A stretch of DNA of 32,198 nt from Patescibacteria group bacterium (GTDB lineage: Bacteria; Patescibacteriota; Microgenomatia; Levybacterales; UBA12049): the NCBI GenBank assembly GCA_038061125.1, contig JBBTZX010000049.1:1-32198 (forward strand). Direction: 5' to 3'. A program made the translations under genes and the position numbers. The notes under the pieces were generated by a model. That model was not told the DNA's origin and ran no database searches. It saw only the letters and a program-made list of their open reading frames with translations. Positions 1 through 26,715 of this stretch are shown one piece after another (position 1 is the stretch's first letter; every line of letters starts with the position of its first letter).

Positions 1-431
1 AAAATTAATAAAGATATGGGGGCAAGAAAAATAATAGTCGTAAGAAGCGTTTTGAAAGAATAATTTTCGCGTGAAGAAAGAAATGAAGCGAAAGAAACCA
101 AAAGAAAAGGTTTTAGAATTTCGGAAAACTGAATTTTTATTCCCCAAATCTCAATCCATCTGACAGATCCTCTTGTCGCAGCGCCTAAAACCAGAACTAA
201 TGCAAGTAGAACTAGAGAGGTAATGTAAATTGGAGCAGAGTAAAGCTTAATTATCCTGTAGTTTACTTGGGAAAAAAATAAGAAGGCAAAAAGAGAAATG
301 ATAAGAAAAATAAACTGACTTCTGAATAAAGAAAAACTAATTGAGAAAAGTGTAGTCAAGCTTAGGAGTACCAATACGAAAACCGGCAATACCAAAGTCC
401 AATCTACATCCAAGAGGCTTCTTTTTGTCAT
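1..431 (-). CDS. SEDS-family peptidoglycan polymerase (RodA/FtsW-like), N-terminal part; continues past the left edge
   Basis: Absent from the ORF track because no stop lies in the window. Hand translation from the ATG at 431-429 gives MTKRSLLDVDWTLVLPVFVLVLLSL...GAATRGSVRWIEIWGIKIQFSEILKPFLLVSFASFL. The G..G..RW...Q(P/F)SE..K block after N-terminal TM helices is the SEDS signature. The ATG overlaps the ileS stop (ATGA at 428-431). Confidence 0.8.
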   Translation of the reverse strand, partial: MTKRSLLDVDWTLVLPVFVLVLLSLTTLFSISFSLFRSQFIFLIISLFAFLFFSQVNYRIIKLYSAPIYITSLVLLALVLVLGAATRGSVRWIEIWGIKIQFSEILKPFLLVSFASFLSSRENYSFKTLLTTIIFLAPISLLI

Positions 432-3280
432 ACGCGGTCAACGGTAAATTTTGGCCCTTTTTTAAGATTTCTAATCAAAGCTTTTTTCTTGATGAGACTT
501 TCGAAAGGCAAAGGCCAATCAGGTAAGGTAACGTTTATTTCATCATTAAGTTCTGTCCCCAGTTTTTTTCTCTCCTCTTGAATTTGTCTGATTATGTCTC
601 TTGCTTCCATTTCTTCTTGCAACTCTTTGGTTATATTCGTATCAAATTCAACAGAAAGTTCTCCTTTATTTTTTGCCAAAACAACTTTTTTAACATTTAA
701 CTCATCTTTAATTAGGCCTATTAATTCTTCATCGATTGAAAATTTAGAATTGAAAATTGAAAATTTAGAAAGCGGTTGTCTTACTTTGATATCTAACTCT
801 CTTCGTTTTGCGTGTCCTAATTCGACAACATTTCTAACAAAAGACATATCATCTATTAGTTTTTCATCTAGCAAGCTTTCATCTTTCAACGGATAATTTT
901 GCAAGTGAACTGATTCTTCTCCAGTTAGATTAGTAAACATCTCGTCAGAGATAAAAGGAACGAATGGAGCAAGTAATTTGCAAAGCGTTAGTAAAATTTC
1001 GTACATCGTGGATAAGGTAATATTTCTTTCATTCTTATCCGACGTAGTGCCCACACGGTTTCTGGAACGTCTTACATACCAAGTTGAAAAATCATTGATT
1101 ACGAAATTTTGAATAGCTCGAGACGAAGTCATTGCGTCATACTTTTCTAAAGATTTATTCGTTACGTCTATAACTTGATTTAATTTCGCTAGGATCCATA
1201 AGTCTAAGGGTTTCAATGTTCCTGTCTTAGTATTGGGATTCCAATTGGAGAAAGTTACGTAATCAATAAAAAATTTATAAGAGTTCCAAAGAATTAAATA
1301 AAATTTTCTTTTAGTTTCGCTTGCGGCTTTGTAGCCGAAATTTAAATTATTTTCCGGATTTGTAGTTACGAACATCCATCTCATAACATCTGATCCTATT
1401 TTCGTAGCCCCTTCATTAAATTCAACTGCGTTACCTTTGGACTTATGCATTTCTTCGCCTTTTTCATCTCTGACGGATGCAAATCCCAATACGGTTTTAA
1501 AAGGATTTGTGTTTTTCAAAGCAGTGCTCATGGCTATCAAAGAGTAGAACCAGTTCTTAAACTGTCCGGGAAAACTTTCAGTTATAAAATCTGACGGAAA
1601 CCAATCTTCCGGCAGTGTGGAAAAGGGTACAATTCCAGCGTCAAGCCATGGATTGCCAACATCCTGAACTCTTGACATAAGGGTATCGCATTTTTCGCAT
1701 TTTAATTTGACCTCATCTATCCATGGTCTGTGAGGGCTATTTCCTTCGAATAAATCCCATCCTTGTGCTGCTTTTTCTTTTAACTCGTTTTTTTCTCCAA
1801 CTACTTGGAAATGCTTGCACTTCGTACATTCCCAAATAGGAAGAGCAAGTCCCCAATATCTTTTTTTGCTGATAAGCCAGTCATGCATATTTTTCAGCCA
1901 GTCCAACTCCCTTTCTTTTCCCCAAGAGGGAATCCAGTTAATCTTTTTTGTCACCTCAACCATCTGCTCTCTGTAAGTTTTGCCGGATTTATCTTTTTTA
2001 TCCATGGCTATGTACCATTCGTCAACAACTCTCCAAACTAATTCCGTCTTACACCTCCAACAGGTTGGATATCTATGGGTAATTCTTTCAGTTTCAAAGA
2101 AATACTTACCATTTTCATAAGTTTTAAGGTAATCAATTATCAATTCGGGATGTTTCTTGGCGTTTTTTCCTGCAAATTCACCCATACCAAGAACGTATGA
2201 TGCATCCTCTTCAATAGAGGAGATAACGGGTAATTTATTTTCTTTCCCAAGTTTGAAATCTTCTTCTCCTGCTCCAGGAGCAACATGTAACAATCCTGTT
2301 CCTTCAGTTTCCGTGACGATATCTTTGCCGTCAATGATGCGATGAATGTAACTGCCTAATGTTTTTTTAACCAAAGGGATTTCATCGAAAGGTGCAACAT
2401 ACTCCCAGCCTATGAATTCTTTTCCTAATTTTTTATCAAATACCTCACCTTTTTTGCCTTTAATTAACCATCTTTTTTCCATAAGCCAAAGCTTTTCATC
2501 ATTGGGGCCTTTTGTAAGAACATATTGTTCTTTGGGATTTACAGCGATTGCAACATTTGACGGAATTGTCCATGGCGTTGTTGTCCAAACCAATAAATAT
2601 TCATTTGTTCTATTTTTTATCGGAAGTTTAAAATAAACAGTTTCGTGGGTTATCTCTTTATATTCCTCAGTAAGAATTTCGTGCTGTGAGATTGCCGTTC
2701 CGCATCTTGGACACCAAGGAACAGTATCGTGACCTTTATATAGCCAGCCTTTTTCATTAATTACTTTTAGAAAATTCCAAATCGCGTAATTATTTCCATC
2801 GGAAGAGGTATGATAGGAGTTATCCCAATCCATAAAATATCCAAGCCGTTTACTTTGCTCGGTTTGAATAGCGGAAAATTTTTTGACCCGTTCTTTGCAA
2901 AGATTAATAAATTTTTCAATGCTTTTAAATTTATTTCCAGATACAAGATTTTCAATATCTTTTTTATTTCTTAATCCCAATTCTTTTTCTACTTCCACTT
3001 CAACCCACAAGCCTTGTTCATCAAAGCCGTTCTGAAACCTTTGTTTTCTTCCCCTCATAGTCCAATATCTTTGCCAAAGATCTTTATAGGTTCTTCCCCA
3101 GGCATGATGAACTCCCATTGGGTTATTCGCAGTTATTGGTCCATCTAAGAAGGAAAACTTCTCTTTCGAAGAATCGTTTTTATGTAAATATTTACCAACT
3201 ATTCTTTTTTTTTGCCATTTATTCAATAATTCTTCTTCCAATTTTGGGAAATCTATTTGTGAAGAAACAGGTTTAAACAT
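428..3280 (-). CDS. ileS: Isoleucine--tRNA ligase (class I aaRS with CP1 editing domain)
   Basis: 950 aa ORF. Motifs seen are TTTPWTIPSNVAIAV (IleRS editing-domain signature), PWCPRCGTAISQHE, a KMSKS-like EMHKSKGN and a HIGH-region GPITANNPMGVHHAWGRTYKD. The length is typical for IleRS. Confidence 0.9.
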   Translation of the reverse strand: MFKPVSSQIDFPKLEEELLNKWQKKRIVGKYLHKNDSSKEKFSFLDGPITANNPMGVHHAWGRTYKDLWQRYWTMRGRKQRFQNGFDEQGLWVEVEVEKELGLRNKKDIENLVSGNKFKSIEKFINLCKERVKKFSAIQTEQSKRLGYFMDWDNSYHTSSDGNNYAIWNFLKVINEKGWLYKGHDTVPWCPRCGTAISQHEILTEEYKEITHETVYFKLPIKNRTNEYLLVWTTTPWTIPSNVAIAVNPKEQYVLTKGPNDEKLWLMEKRWLIKGKKGEVFDKKLGKEFIGWEYVAPFDEIPLVKKTLGSYIHRIIDGKDIVTETEGTGLLHVAPGAGEEDFKLGKENKLPVISSIEEDASYVLGMGEFAGKNAKKHPELIIDYLKTYENGKYFFETERITHRYPTCWRCKTELVWRVVDEWYIAMDKKDKSGKTYREQMVEVTKKINWIPSWGKERELDWLKNMHDWLISKKRYWGLALPIWECTKCKHFQVVGEKNELKEKAAQGWDLFEGNSPHRPWIDEVKLKCEKCDTLMSRVQDVGNPWLDAGIVPFSTLPEDWFPSDFITESFPGQFKNWFYSLIAMSTALKNTNPFKTVLGFASVRDEKGEEMHKSKGNAVEFNEGATKIGSDVMRWMFVTTNPENNLNFGYKAASETKRKFYLILWNSYKFFIDYVTFSNWNPNTKTGTLKPLDLWILAKLNQVIDVTNKSLEKYDAMTSSRAIQNFVINDFSTWYVRRSRNRVGTTSDKNERNITLSTMYEILLTLCKLLAPFVPFISDEMFTNLTGEESVHLQNYPLKDESLLDEKLIDDMSFVRNVVELGHAKRRELDIKVRQPLSKFSIFNSKFSIDEELIGLIKDELNVKKVVLAKNKGELSVEFDTNITKELQEEMEARDIIRQIQEERKKLGTELNDEINVTLPDWPLPFESLIKKKALIRNLKKGPKFTVDRV

Positions 3281-3287
3281 ATTATTA

Positions 3288-3317
3288 ATTCTATCTGATT
3301 TGGTATAATTAACGCAA
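3288..3317 (-). promoter_or_regulatory. Putative sigma70-type promoter for ileS (TTGCGT-18-TAGAAT), with the -10 box 7 nt from the ATG
   Basis: Read on the minus strand, TTGCGT (3317-3312), an 18 nt spacer, TAGAAT (3293-3288), then 7 nt (taataat) before the ileS ATG at 3280. Motif match only, in AT-rich DNA. Confidence 0.4.
3301..3309 (+). promoter_or_regulatory. Putative extended -10 promoter (TGgTATAAT) for tRNA-Val and possibly the downstream GT4 gene
   Basis: TG at 3301-3302 and TATAAT at 3304-3309, 8 nt upstream of the mature tRNA 5' end at 3318. Confidence 0.45.
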
Positions 3318-3389
3318 GGACTCGTAGCTCAGCGGTAGAGCGCTTCATTCACATTGAAGAAGTCAGAGGTTCGAATCCTCTCGGGTCCA
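3318..3389 (+). tRNA. tRNA-Val (anticodon CAC)
   Basis: Hand-folded cloverleaf: acceptor GGACTCG/CGGGTCC (one G-U pair), D arm GCTC-AGCGGTA-GAGC, anticodon arm CTTCA-TTCACAT-TGAAG, variable loop AAGTC, T arm AGAGG-TTCGAAT-CCTCT, discriminator A. CCA is not encoded. Confidence 0.9.
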
Positions 3390-3390
3390 C

Positions 3391-4449
3391 ATGAAGATTC
3401 TTTTTTTGTCCAGACTTTTTTATCCCCATATCGGCGGAGTTGAAAAGCATGTAATGGAAATAAGCAGATTGTTAGTTGAGAAAGGTCATCAGGTAAGCGT
3501 GGTAACGGAAGAATTACCAGCTGAAGATATACCAGTATATCTTCAATCAAAGAGGTTACCGGAGCATGAGGTTTTTAATTCAATTGAAGTTTATAGAATT
3601 CCGGTTGGCAAAAATGAATGGTTTAAAAAGTTTATTATTTGGAAATGGTTTTGGACAAACAGAAAATTGATAGAGGATGCAGATATAGTACATTGTCATG
3701 ATGTATTTTTTTGGTACCTCCCTTTTAGATTTTTATTTCCTTTCAAAAAAGTATTTACAACATTTCATGGATACGAAGGTTATCCTCTAAAACCAAAAGA
3801 TATTTTAGTGCACAAATTGTCAGAAAAGCTATCCAATGGCAATATTTGTATTGGTGATTTTATTCAAAGATGGTATGGAACAAAGCCAACATATGTTTCG
3901 TATGGAGGCGTTAACGTAAGCGAAAAACGAAAAGCGAAAAGCGAAAAGCAGGTAGAACGATCAGCGGTTTTTGTAGGAAGACTTGATGAGCAGACGGGTT
4001 TTTTAACCTATCTTGAGGCGGTTAAAAAAATAAGAGAAAAATTTCCGGATTTTAAATTCACCGTATTTGGAGATGGAAAGCTTAGGAATAAAATTAATAA
4101 AGATATCGATTTCAGAGGTTTAGTAGAAAATCCGGAGAAAGAATTGCCGAAATTCAATTTTATTTTTGCCTCAAGATACTTATCGATTTTGGAAGCAATG
4201 GCTGCAAAAAGATCGGTATTGGCAGTATACGATAATCCCTTAAAAAAAGATTATTTAAAGATGTCACCGTTTGCGGATTATATTTCGATTAGCGATTCAT
4301 CGGAGGGTTTAGCTAAAAATGTAGAATATTTTTTAAAAAATCCCAAAGAGAAAGAAAAATTAACTAATAAAGCTTTTGAGTGGGTAAAAAAGCAATCCTG
4401 GGGAAATCTATCTAATGTATGCATAAATCTTTGGCAACGAAGTAAATAG
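3391..4449 (+). CDS. GT4-family (GT-B fold) glycosyltransferase
   Basis: The N-terminus MKILFLSRLFYPHIGGVEKHVMEISRLLVEKGHQV is the classic GT4 beta1/Gly-rich loop. The C-terminal half has VFVGRLDEQTG and SILEAMAAKRSVLA (EX7E-like region). The start codon lies 1 nt after the tRNA-Val discriminator base. Confidence 0.85.
   Translation: MKILFLSRLFYPHIGGVEKHVMEISRLLVEKGHQVSVVTEELPAEDIPVYLQSKRLPEHEVFNSIEVYRIPVGKNEWFKKFIIWKWFWTNRKLIEDADIVHCHDVFFWYLPFRFLFPFKKVFTTFHGYEGYPLKPKDILVHKLSEKLSNGNICIGDFIQRWYGTKPTYVSYGGVNVSEKRKAKSEKQVERSAVFVGRLDEQTGFLTYLEAVKKIREKFPDFKFTVFGDGKLRNKINKDIDFRGLVENPEKELPKFNFIFASRYLSILEAMAAKRSVLAVYDNPLKKDYLKMSPFADYISISDSSEGLAKNVEYFLKNPKEKEKLTNKAFEWVKKQSWGNLSNVCINLWQRSK
3920..3947 (+). 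repeat. Heptanucleotide tandem repeat (gcgaaaa/acgaaaa/gcgaaaa/gcgaaaa) inside the GT4 CDS
   Basis: Four consecutive 7-nt units plus a partial gc, read directly. They encode SEKRKAKSEK in the predicted inter-domain linker. Confidence 0.9.
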
Positions 4450-4455
4450 AGGGAG

Positions 4456-5478
4456 TTATATTTCATACAAAGCTTCAAAAAACAGTCTTTGAATCGGGTG
4501 AGGATGCTGGTAAATAGTGCGCCAATTTTTAGGAATGGGGTATTCGTCTTCCCTTATGCAGGAATTATCCTTTGCATACGATCTTATCCATTGTTTGTTA
4601 TAAAAATAGCCATCAGTTAAGCGGTTAATCTCATTAATATAATTACTTATTTGTCTTCGTGTCATTTCATGCAGTGTGCTTATCGAAATCATAAGATTAA
4701 AATACTTATCGGGTAAATATTTTATTTGATGAGCCATAATAAATCTAATTCGCGCGGCTTCAAATTCTTCCTTTATTTCTCCAAACGATGAAAAAGGCCT
4801 AAAGAGAAAAATCTTTTCCTCAGGAAACACTTTTGATAAATACTCCTGCGATATAAAAAGAGCAGGCGGAATGTCGATAATGCAATAGGAAATTTTTGGC
4901 AGCGCCTGCAGAAATACATATGCCAATCTTCCATATCCCGCACCTATTTCTGCCACTTCCATATGTTTTTGTGAATTAATTTTATCGGTTATACTATAAA
5001 ACTCATGTACGGAGTTGCATAAGTCTTGAGAGACAAAGTTCTTTTTATAGCTAACGATGAAAGGGTTTCCGACAAGAGGCTCTTTGATACGATCTAAAAG
5101 TTTCAATTTGTCTTTGCGATAAACATAGTCGCTTAGATAAGCGACATATATTTTGTATATGAAAGCAGTAATGTGATTAAAAGACGTAACGTATGAGCGG
5201 ATTTGCGACCGAGGATTTAAAAATCGGCTCCTAAATATCGGAGCAAAATTTCCTCTTTTCAACTCTGAAATTATTGGCGATAGCTGATGTCTAATAATCA
5301 TCAGGATTTTCCAATTAAAATAGTGTACCGTAACCGATCTTTTAAAATTGTCAAAACCAGAATGCAGCAATTGTGCGTTATGTATTTTATTTAATTTTTT
5401 CCAAAATTCCGAAGGATAATAGACTGAAGGAGCTTTCTTGATTTCGGTAATCATTTCTTTTAGCTTCGCGTTATTCAT
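4456..5478 (-). CDS. Class I SAM-dependent methyltransferase, putative sugar O-methyltransferase type
   Basis: 340 aa. The N-terminal PSEFWKKLNKIHNAQLLHSGFDNFKRSVTVHYFNW and the central VAEIGAGYGRLAYVFL (SAM motif I) resemble the putative sugar O-methyltransferase family found in O-antigen-type clusters. The ATG overlaps the upstream stop (ATGA at 5475-5478). Confidence 0.65.
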   Translation of the reverse strand: MNNAKLKEMITEIKKAPSVYYPSEFWKKLNKIHNAQLLHSGFDNFKRSVTVHYFNWKILMIIRHQLSPIISELKRGNFAPIFRSRFLNPRSQIRSYVTSFNHITAFIYKIYVAYLSDYVYRKDKLKLLDRIKEPLVGNPFIVSYKKNFVSQDLCNSVHEFYSITDKINSQKHMEVAEIGAGYGRLAYVFLQALPKISYCIIDIPPALFISQEYLSKVFPEEKIFLFRPFSSFGEIKEEFEAARIRFIMAHQIKYLPDKYFNLMISISTLHEMTRRQISNYINEINRLTDGYFYNKQWIRSYAKDNSCIREDEYPIPKNWRTIYQHPHPIQRLFFEALYEI

Positions 5479-26627: not shown

Positions 26628-26642
26628 AGATAGAATATGCAG

Positions 26643-26715
26643 AGCCGAAGGAGGGAGTCGAACCCTCGACTTACTCTTTACGAAAGAGTTACTCTACCAA
26701 CTGAGTTACTTCGGC
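26643..26715 (-). tRNA. tRNA-Thr (anticodon CGT)
   Basis: The reverse complement folds as acceptor GCCGAAG/CTTCGGC, D arm ACTC-AGTTGGTA-GAGT, anticodon arm ACTCT-TTCGTAA-AGAGT, variable loop AAGTC, T arm GAGGG-TTCGACT-CCCTC, discriminator T. CCA is not encoded. Confidence 0.9.

What the first reader, a model, noticed from the sequence alone, without database searches (positions are those of the whole stretch)
3301..3393. tRNA-Val ends 1 nt before a glycosyltransferase start codon: possible tRNA-punctuated, processing-generated leaderless mRNA
The tRNA-Val discriminator base is 3389 and the GT4 ATG is 3391-3393, on the same strand. The GT4 N-terminus (MKILFLSRLFYPHIGGVEKHV) is the conserved first strand and Gly-rich loop of the fold, so the start cannot be moved downstream. 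That leaves no room for a promoter or ribosome-binding site between the two genes. The only promoter-like element is TGgTATAAT at 3301-3309, upstream of the tRNA. The simplest reading is a tRNA-mRNA co-transcript. Because CCA is not encoded, 3' end processing after the discriminator (RNase Z-type) would release an mRNA beginning C-AUG, which is effectively leaderless. This resembles mitochondrial tRNA punctuation and would be an unusual way to start a bacterial operon.
Basis: partly seen in the sequence, partly recalled or inferred. Interest (0 to 1): 0.6.

Follow-up and report, generated by a model that had tools for sequence, protein, structure and literature searches.

The report
tRNA gene abutting leaderless glycosyltransferase gene

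Summary
tRNA-Val(CAC) is 3318-3389, C3390 follows, and the GT4 ATG is 3391. The start is fixed by invariant N-terminal residues in 17 orthologues. The only good promoter is the extended -10 TGGTATAAT (3301-3309), 8 nt before the tRNA. The 37-nt ileS-tRNA spacer is identical in three congeners whose synonymous sites are saturated.

The genome is a Levybacteria MAG that shows no Shine-Dalgarno enrichment. It has a sharp peak of TGnTAnnnT boxes ending 6 nt before ATGs, so leaderless mRNAs are its normal mode.

tRNA-Val(CAC) lies upstream of GT4 in 24 of 94 distinct orthologous loci, with spacers of 1 to 329 nt. Junctions of 1-2 nt arose at least twice.

Best reading (0.55): the two genes form a co-transcript, and a cut at the tRNA 3' end frees a leaderless GT4 mRNA.

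RNase Z was not found (0 of 101 genomes of the order over cut-off). GT4 is a single gene, not an operon head.

All 35 scorable tRNA genes encode C74, so C3390 probably belongs to the pre-tRNA.

No RNA data exist. This scan has already noted the same arrangement in other CPR and DPANN genomes.

The parts
3301..3309 (+). Extended -10 promoter TGGTATAAT for the tRNA-Val/GT4 transcript. It lies 8 nt before the tRNA 5' end, so the predicted start is about 3316-3318 and the tRNA leader is 0-2 nt.
   Evidence: Sequence. The same TGnTAnAAT type sits 8-19 nt before many other tRNA genes and 6-9 nt before many ATGs. It is 100% conserved, with the whole 37-nt spacer, in G001 and G002. Function is inferred.
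3318..3389 (+). tRNA-Val(CAC), the only copy of this anticodon in the assembly; discriminator A3389; CCA not encoded.
   Evidence: Rfam 71.5 bits; ARAGORN. Acceptor-stem covariation: T5.G68 here against G5-C68 in the congeners.
3390..3390 (+). C at tRNA position 74, the only base between the discriminator and the ATG. It is probably part of the pre-tRNA and not a spacer.
   Evidence: C74 is encoded in 35 of 35 scorable tRNA genes of G000 and in 43 of 43 distinct tRNA-Val(CAC) genes in related loci.
3391..4449 (+). GT4-family glycosyltransferase gene (352 aa). It is monocistronic and the first gene of a glycan-type locus.
   Evidence: ORF; Pfam PF13439 and PF00534; conserved N-terminus; dN/dS 0.12-0.21.
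3288..3293 (-). TAGAAT -10 box of the divergent ileS gene, 7 nt before its ATG at 3280. This is the leaderless-type spacing.
   Evidence: Sequence; listed among leaderless-spaced promoters.
428..3280 (-). ileS (isoleucine-tRNA ligase), divergent neighbour.
   Evidence: TIGR00392, 663.6 bits, over cut-off.
4456..5478 (-). Convergent 340-aa ORF of no Pfam family. It shows that GT4 has no downstream co-oriented partner.

Best explanation
tRNA-Val(CAC) and the GT4 gene form one transcription unit. It is driven by the extended -10 promoter at 3301-3309 and starts within about 2 nt of the tRNA 5' end. RNase P trims any leader. An endonucleolytic cut at the tRNA 3' end, after A3389 or more likely after C3390, separates the two products. 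One is a tRNA that the CCA-adding enzyme completes. The other is a 5'-monophosphate mRNA that begins at, or 1 nt before, the AUG.

That mRNA is translated by the leaderless route, which this organism appears to use for most genes at the head of a transcription unit. The cutting enzyme is unknown. It is not a recognisable RNase Z. RNase J, RNase Y and an undescribed enzyme are the candidates.

Shown: the anatomy, its conservation, the genome-wide leaderless promoter spacing and the gene content. Inferred: co-transcription, the position of the cut, and translation of the product.
For: 1. Anatomy. One base lies between the discriminator and the ATG. There is no in-frame upstream start. No terminator-like site occurs in 2800-5000.
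2. The start codon is fixed by invariant N-terminal residues in 17 orthologues.
3. The promoter matches the TGnTAnAAT type seen before other tRNAs. The 37-nt spacer is identical in three congeners (37 of 37) while GT4 dS is 0.9-1.5.
4. Leaderless translation is native to this genome. TGnTAnnnT ends exactly 6 nt before the ATG in 28 ORFs, 7 nt in 11, 8 nt in 10 and 9 nt in 9, against 0-5 at spacings of 13-39 nt and 0-1 at 0-5 nt (spacings of 10-12 nt: 7, 3 and 9). Shine-Dalgarno 4-mers are not enriched (12.9% against 12.7% in an internal control), although the congener's 16S rRNA ends in CACCTCCTTTCT.
5. GT4 is under purifying selection (dN/dS 0.12-0.21), so it must be expressed.
6. The tRNA-Val to GT4 linkage is present in 24 of 94 distinct orthologous loci. 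Spacers after the discriminator include 1, 2, 6, 12, 13, 19, 22, 25 and 35 nt and reach 329 nt, mostly without a Shine-Dalgarno motif. Junctions of 2 nt or less need at least two origins on the GT4 tree.
7. The RNase P protein and a CCA-adding family enzyme are present. RNase P RNA is present in the congeners.
8. In the MFE fold of 3316-3470 the acceptor stem, D arm and T arm form as in the cloverleaf (the anticodon arm is drawn slightly differently), and the 10 nt after the acceptor stem, AUG included, are unpaired.
9. Leaderless initiation needs a 5' phosphate. It is inhibited by extra 5' nucleotides and by structure near the start (review PMC9031893). This favours a processed 5' end over an attached tRNA.
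Against: There is no RNA evidence of any kind. No recognisable enzyme for a precise 3' endonucleolytic cut was found. RNase Z, RNase E/G, RNase R/II, RNase T and RNase D were not found in G000 (85% complete) or in G001, G002, G041 and G032 (86-100% complete). The only 3' exonuclease found is PNPase. If tRNA 3' ends here are made by exonucleolytic trimming, maturing the tRNA would destroy the mRNA 5' end. A 5'-monophosphate mRNA would also be a good substrate for the 5' exonuclease activity of RNase J (established knowledge of the family).
Confidence: 0.55

Rival explanations
1. The two genes are co-transcribed, but there is no precise cut. The chimeric tRNA-mRNA is itself the translated species, with ribosomes starting at an AUG 2 nt after the acceptor stem. 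The tRNA is matured only later, when the mRNA part is degraded 3'-to-5' (PNPase after RNase Y or J cuts) back to C74. Each transcript would then serve first as message and then as tRNA precursor.
For: RNase Z and every other recognisable precise or near-precise 3' processing enzyme are missing, while PNPase, RNase Y and RNase J are present. The universal encoded C74 could be an exonuclease stop or an RNase P contact. This organism initiates without Shine-Dalgarno pairing in general. An attached tRNA would shield the 5' end from RNase J.
Against: Leaderless and Shine-Dalgarno-independent initiation are both inhibited by structure near the start and by 5' extensions (PMC9031893). A folded tRNA ending at -2 would sit where the 30S platform holds the mRNA. 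PNPase is known to stall several nucleotides 3' of stable helices (general knowledge), so it would not by itself give a C74 end.
Confidence: 0.22
2. GT4 has its own promoter inside the tRNA gene and is transcribed independently as a primary leaderless or short-leader mRNA.
For: Leaderless primary transcripts are the norm in this genome. The T-loop region contains TCGAAT at 3371-3376, a 4-of-6 match to TATAAT.
Against: For a start at 3391 a -10 box should end near 3384, but 3376-3390 reads tcctctcgggtccac, which is G+C-rich with no TAnnnT. TCGAAT lacks the critical A at position 2 and is part of the near-universal T loop. The promoter scan lists nothing there.
Confidence: 0.05
3. The junction has no expression logic. 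GT4 is weakly or not expressed here, or it starts at a downstream codon (Met22 at 3454), and the tight spacing is a neutral result of genome compaction.
For: The genome is very compact. About 16 of 36 tRNA genes have a co-oriented candidate ORF of at least 80 aa, several with TTG or GTG starts, beginning within 60 nt. Spacer length varies freely among relatives.
Against: GT4 is under purifying selection (dN/dS 0.12-0.21). Residues 1-21 include nine invariant positions that form the first strand and the glycine loop. The junction has persisted through saturating synonymous divergence and recurs independently.
Confidence: 0.05

Closest known systems
Mitochondrial tRNA punctuation (Ojala, Montoya and Attardi 1981; cited in the reference list of PMC4633059 and discussed in PMC5716156)
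   Same: A tRNA directly abuts a coding sequence on one transcript. Excising the tRNA defines the mRNA 5' end. The resulting mRNAs are leaderless and are translated without a Shine-Dalgarno motif.
   Different: In mitochondria RNase P and RNase Z (ELAC2) do the cutting and the scheme covers the whole genome. Here it is one junction, with looser ones nearby, in a free bacterial genome that has many promoters. RNase Z was not found. Nothing has been shown at the RNA level.
Bacterial and archaeal tRNA-mRNA co-transcription units: E. coli thrU-tyrU-glyT-thrT-tufB (own knowledge) and Thermococcus kodakarensis tRNA-Lys inside the 159-nt 5' UTR of TK0306 (PMC4247193)
   Same: A tRNA promoter drives a downstream protein gene, and the tRNA is cut out of the shared transcript.
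   Different: Those mRNAs keep a leader of tens of nucleotides or more after the tRNA. Here there is no leader at all.
Primary leaderless mRNAs of Actinobacteria and Deinococcus (PMC4633059, PMC3848588, PMC4007540)
   Same: A -10 box lies about 6-7 nt before the start codon, there is no Shine-Dalgarno motif, and a large share of transcription units is affected. G000 shows the same genomic signature.
   Different: Those 5' ends are primary (triphosphate). The GT4 mRNA would be made leaderless by processing, so it would carry a monophosphate.
MazF-generated leaderless mRNAs in E. coli (Vesper et al. 2011; questioned according to PMC9031893)
   Same: A leaderless mRNA is created post-transcriptionally by an endonuclease.
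   Different: MazF leaves a 5'-OH end, acts under stress and is disputed. Here the cut would be constitutive tRNA maturation.

Membership tests
tRNA-punctuated (processing-generated) leaderless mRNA | tRNA and ORF on the same strand, abutting, with no promoter or terminator between them | tested here: met
   One base (C3390) lies between them. No terminator-like site and no -10-like box occurs in 3376-3390.
tRNA-punctuated (processing-generated) leaderless mRNA | A single primary transcript spans the tRNA and the ORF | not testable with these tools
   No RNA run holds the locus. The one run laid is probably DNA of relatives.
tRNA-punctuated (processing-generated) leaderless mRNA | RNase Z (tRNA 3' endonuclease) encoded | tested here: not met
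   For TIGR02651 the best hit is 22 bits in a ComEC-like MBL domain. The only other MBL protein is RNase J. None of 101 genomes of the order scores over cut-off. tblastn with relatives' RNase Z-like proteins finds nothing in G000. G000 is 85% complete, G002 96%.
tRNA-punctuated (processing-generated) leaderless mRNA | RNase P and a CCA-adding enzyme encoded | tested here: met
   PF00825 is found in all five genomes. A divergent RNase P RNA is found in G001, G002, G032 and G041 but not in G000. PF01743 scores 117.7 bits in G000.
tRNA-punctuated (processing-generated) leaderless mRNA | A processed (monophosphate) mRNA 5' end at the start codon | not testable with these tools
   This needs dRNA-seq or 5' RACE.
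Leaderless-translating organism | Genome-wide -10 box at a fixed 6-7 nt before start codons and no Shine-Dalgarno enrichment | tested here: met
   TGnTAnnnT ends 6 nt before the ATG in 28 ORFs, against 0-5 at spacings of 13-39 nt and 0-1 at 0-5 nt. Shine-Dalgarno 4-mers: 12.9% against 12.7% in the control. This is an indirect, sequence-only test.
Functional tRNA-Val | Full cloverleaf, CAC anticodon, compensatory changes in relatives | tested here: met
   71.5 bits over model positions 1-71. Acceptor pair 5-68 is T.G here and G-C in the congeners. It is the only Val-CAC gene among the 36 tRNAs.
GT4 glycosyltransferase (GT-B fold) | Glyco_transf_4 N-domain plus Glycos_transf_1 C-domain | tested here: met
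   PF13439 at 59.5 bits and PF00534 at 46.1 bits, both over cut-off. The sugar and the acceptor are unknown.

The most novel reading that the evidence does not exclude
Levybacteria mature their CCA-less tRNAs without RNase Z, RNase E/G, RNase R/II, RNase T or RNase D. An unrecognised endonuclease, or RNase J or Y acting in a new role, cuts just after a universally encoded C74. At loci like this one, the same cut turns tRNA maturation into the birth of an exactly leaderless mRNA. That would be a bacterial counterpart of mitochondrial punctuation run by different enzymes.
Probability: 0.25. Interest if true: 0.7.

Novelty: new variant of a known kind. Interest (0 to 1): 0.5.

Why it matters
If the reading is right, a free-living-type bacterial lineage uses tRNA excision to create a translatable leaderless mRNA. 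That mechanism is textbook for animal mitochondria, and I found no description of it for bacteria in the literature searched.

The case also exposes a gap. These genomes have almost only CCA-less tRNA genes, yet they lack every recognised tRNA 3'-end nuclease except PNPase. So how CPR bacteria finish their tRNAs is open, and this junction is a natural reporter for where the cut falls.

For annotation there are two practical lessons. In such genomes a start codon that touches a tRNA gene should not be moved downstream. [quoted passage not shown]

Tried and rejected
- RNA evidence: no RNA holder is listed for 3100-4500. The single run laid (X1, labelled RNA-Seq but probably DNA) gave only short contigs from relatives. 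One 151-nt contig crosses the junction with 9 differences. This says nothing on expression.
- RNase Z: searched with TIGR02651, PF12706, PF00753 and tblastn with relatives' RNase Z-like proteins. Only a ComEC-like domain and RNase J turned up.
- Internal promoter in the tRNA: none is convincing.
- Link between tRNA identity and the gene: GT4 uses GTG for only 2 of 28 Val codons, against 12% genome-wide. There is no codon-supply logic.
- ileS next to tRNA-Val: the neighbour is IleRS, not ValRS, so there is no cognate pairing.
- Literature: searches for leaderless mRNA together with Patescibacteria or CPR, tRNA punctuation in bacteria, and tRNA-mRNA processing found no description of this arrangement in bacteria.
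- 16S and RNase P RNA were not found in G000 itself because the MAG is incomplete. I used congeners instead.
- The careful tree search did not finish in time. The tree cited is the quick one.

Full report
**1. Observation**

The Rfam tRNA model matches 3318-3389 over its full length (71.5 bits, E 2e-15). ARAGORN calls tRNA-Val(CAC) at 3318-3390. The extra base arises because ARAGORN extends over a C after the discriminator. The sequence reads ...CGGGTCC-A(3389)-C(3390)-ATG(3391).

The ORF 3391-4449 encodes 352 aa. Its ATG is the first start codon after an in-frame TGA at 3355-3357. Pfam finds Glyco_transf_4 from residue 14 and Glycos_transf_1, which is a GT4-type GT-B enzyme.

In an alignment of 17 orthologues (42-75% identity) M1, F5, P12, G15, G16, V17, E18, H20 and V21 are invariant. 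The start is therefore fixed.

**2. Surroundings**

The upstream neighbour on the other strand (428-3280) is ileS (TIGR00392, 663.6 bits). Only 37 nt (3281-3317) separate it from the tRNA. This spacer holds TGGTATAAT (3301-3309, plus strand), 8 nt before the tRNA. It also holds TAGAAT (3288-3293, minus strand), 7 nt before the ileS ATG.

The next gene after GT4 (4456-5478) is convergent. GT4 is therefore a single gene behind the tRNA and not the head of an operon. No terminator-like site occurs in 2800-5000.

**3. The organism**

The assembly has 819 kb, 106 contigs, 36.6% G+C and 36 tRNA genes, and is 85% complete by the genome table. Record titles of the closest relatives name Candidatus Levybacteria/Levyibacteriota, which belong to the Microgenomates within Patescibacteria (CPR).

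Shine-Dalgarno 4-mers occur before 12.9% of starts, against 12.7% at random internal positions. G frequency at -7 to -12 is only 0.12-0.17. Yet the 16S rRNA of a congener ends in GGATCACCTCCTTTCT.

The extended -10 motif TGnTAnnnT ends exactly 6 nt before the ATG in 28 of 550 unambiguous ORFs. It ends 7 nt before in 11, 8 nt in 10 and 9 nt in 9. Counts are 7, 3 and 9 at 10-12 nt, 0-5 at 13-39 nt, and 0-1 at 0-5 nt. This is the genomic signature of primary leaderless mRNAs, as described for Actinobacteria and Deinococcus (PMC4633059, PMC3848588, PMC4007540).

tRNA genes carry the same promoter type 8-19 nt upstream. Short or absent 5' leaders are therefore the rule in this genome. The lack of a ribosome-binding site before GT4 is not special in itself.

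**4. Conservation**

GT4 orthologues occur in most genomes of the order. tRNA-Val(CAC) lies upstream on the same strand in 12 of the first 30 loci and 22 of 80 further loci. Together that is 24 of 94 distinct proteins.

Spacers after the discriminator:
- 1 nt in G000, G001 and G002 (one genus), and also in G041 (another family, with a quite different tRNA sequence).
- 2 nt with a GTG start in L065 and L069.
- 6, 12, 13, 13, 19, 22, 25 and 35 nt in other loci.
- Longer ones from 48 up to 329 nt.

Most spacers lack a Shine-Dalgarno motif. Many loci without the tRNA show a TGnTAnAAT box between about 7 and 20 nt before the GT4 ATG, and others abut an upstream ORF.

On a quick maximum-likelihood tree the junctions of 2 nt or less need at least two origins.

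Among the three congeners GT4 has dS 0.9-1.5 and dN/dS 0.12-0.21. The 37-nt spacer is identical in all three, and the tRNA shows a compensatory change in acceptor pair 5-68. The tRNA, the gene and the promoter region are all under selection.

**5. How GT4 can be expressed**

A promoter giving a start at 3391 would need a -10 box ending near 3384. That stretch is tcctctcgggtccac. The only -10-like hexamer inside the tRNA is the T-loop TCGAAT, which lacks the key A at position 2. Co-transcription from the tRNA promoter is therefore the only sensible reading.

In the MFE fold of 3316-3470 the acceptor stem, D arm and T arm form as in the cloverleaf (the anticodon arm is drawn slightly differently), and the 10 nt after the acceptor stem, AUG included, are unpaired.

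Leaderless initiation requires a 5' phosphate. It is weakened by extra 5' nucleotides and by structure near the start (review PMC9031893). This argues that the tRNA must be removed for efficient translation. Cuts by metal-dependent RNases leave the required 5' phosphate (general knowledge).

**6. The enzyme problem**

In G000 the hit lies in a 289-aa MBL protein that scores best as the ComEC C-terminal domain.

A census of MBL-fold genes finds only that protein and RNase J (TIGR00649, 491 bits) in the genus. Of 101 genomes of the order, none passes the RNase Z cut-off. About 14 carry a 250-270 aa RNase Z-like protein, but it has no homologue in G000.

Also not found in the five genomes examined:
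- RNase E/G
- RNB-type RNase R/II
- RNase T
- RNase D

Present:
- RNase P protein
- A divergent RNase P RNA in the congeners and relatives
- RNase Y
- PNPase
- A CCA-adding family enzyme

The 3' processing route for the largely CCA-less tRNA genes of this clade is therefore unknown. This is the main weakness of the processing model. It keeps alive the rival in which the tRNA-mRNA chimera is translated and the tRNA is matured only when the message decays.

**7. C74**

In G000, 35 of 35 scorable tRNA genes encode C at position 74. Only 5 encode CCA and 4 encode CC. All 43 distinct tRNA-Val(CAC) genes in related loci also have C74.

C3390 is therefore probably part of the functional pre-tRNA. It could be retained in the mature tRNA, or it could be a contact for RNase P. 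The L15 loop of the G041 RNase P RNA keeps the GGU motif, which pairs with tRNA positions 73-75 (own knowledge).

If the cut falls after C74, the mRNA starts exactly at the A of AUG. That would explain why the minimal spacing seen is 1 and never 0. This last point is inference.

**8. What is known**

I found no paper describing tRNA excision that creates leaderless mRNAs in bacteria, and no paper on leaderless mRNAs in Patescibacteria.

The closest described cases are:
- Mitochondrial tRNA punctuation.
- tRNA-mRNA operons with real leaders, namely E. coli tufB (own knowledge) and the T. kodakarensis tRNA-Lys in the TK0306 5' UTR (PMC4247193).
- Primary leaderless mRNAs.

Earlier notes of this scan report the same kind of junction in other CPR and DPANN genomes:
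- tRNA-Ala before an acyl-CoA ligase gene.
- tRNA-Val before tsaD.
- tRNA-Leu before miaA.
- tRNA-Gly before a phosphatase-like gene.

I did not test those notes. They mean this locus is one more instance of a recurring pattern and not a singular find.

**9. Verdict**

- Co-transcription is close to unavoidable.
- Release of a leaderless mRNA is the best-supported mechanism (0.55) but is unproven.
- The RNase Z step is not supported.
- The 'operon' and 'no RBS' arguments do not hold.

I rate it a new variant of a known kind, of moderate interest. The interest is raised somewhat by the missing 3' nuclease and the universal C74.

Noticed in passing
whole genome G000 (all contigs); window 3390: Every scorable tRNA gene (35 of 35) encodes C at position 74. 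Only 5 encode full CCA. The same holds for 43 of 43 distinct tRNA-Val(CAC) genes in related Levybacteria loci. This suggests that C74 is kept from the gene, or is needed by RNase P. The L15 loop of the G041 RNase P RNA keeps GGU.
   Followed up: partly
G000, G001, G002, G041, G032 (whole genomes): The RNase set is minimal: RNase P, RNase J, RNase Y and PNPase. RNase Z, RNase E/G, RNase R/II, RNase T and RNase D were not found, although most tRNA genes lack CCA. How tRNA 3' ends are made in this clade is open.
   Followed up: partly
L110 2321-2496 (same as L011); L098 about 1409-1640; L025 1284-1460; metagenome loci L158, L209, L210, L184: A complete tRNA gene sits on an insert of about 104 nt with the conserved ends CCCGCCTGC...GGCGGGCAGG, and the insert lies inside another tRNA gene. 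Cases: Val(CAC) in the Val(CAC) anticodon loop (L098, L025); Pro(CGG) in Pro(CGG) (L158, L209); Arg(CCT) in Arg(CCT) (L210); and, unusually, Val(CAC) inside the D stem of a tRNA-Thr(CGT) whose 3' end lies 5 nt before the GT4 ATG (L110). Earlier scan notes describe this kind of replacement cassette.
   Followed up: partly
G000 contigs C8, C17, C60, C71, C101 (trailers of 7 tRNA genes): Seven tRNA genes share a trailer right after C74: TTCG or TC, then an optional short hairpin, then CTCAGTGCAAGCAC-like. The core [CT]TC[AG]GTGC occurs 20 times in the genome, 7 of them within 80 nt after a tRNA. Its function is unknown. It could be a processing signal, a terminator or a cassette scar.
   Followed up: partly
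window 3281-3317: The 37-nt ileS-tRNA spacer carries two divergent, partly interleaved -10 boxes. It is 100% identical in three congeners whose synonymous sites are saturated.
   Followed up: yes
window 26642-26715 (minus strand) and downstream: tRNA-Thr(CGT) at the other end of the glycan locus is followed on the same strand by an ORF whose candidate starts lie about 14-30 nt after it. This is a looser copy of the same tRNA-then-gene layout.
   Followed up: no
L038 (G002:C6) 1-2052; L036 (G032:C2) 416-627: The 16S rRNA gene of congener G002 matches the model in several separated pieces, which implies inserted sequences. A group I intron match (57.8 bits) lies on the same strand as the G032 16S gene and about 0.9 kb downstream of it, where a 23S gene would be expected (not checked).
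   Followed up: no
G014:C4, G048:C25, G060:C7, G037:C2 (GT4 orthologues): In several relatives the GT4 match is split within one open frame. Residues 1-45 match, then the match resumes at about residue 62-75. This indicates an insertion after the N-terminal glycine loop.
   Followed up: no
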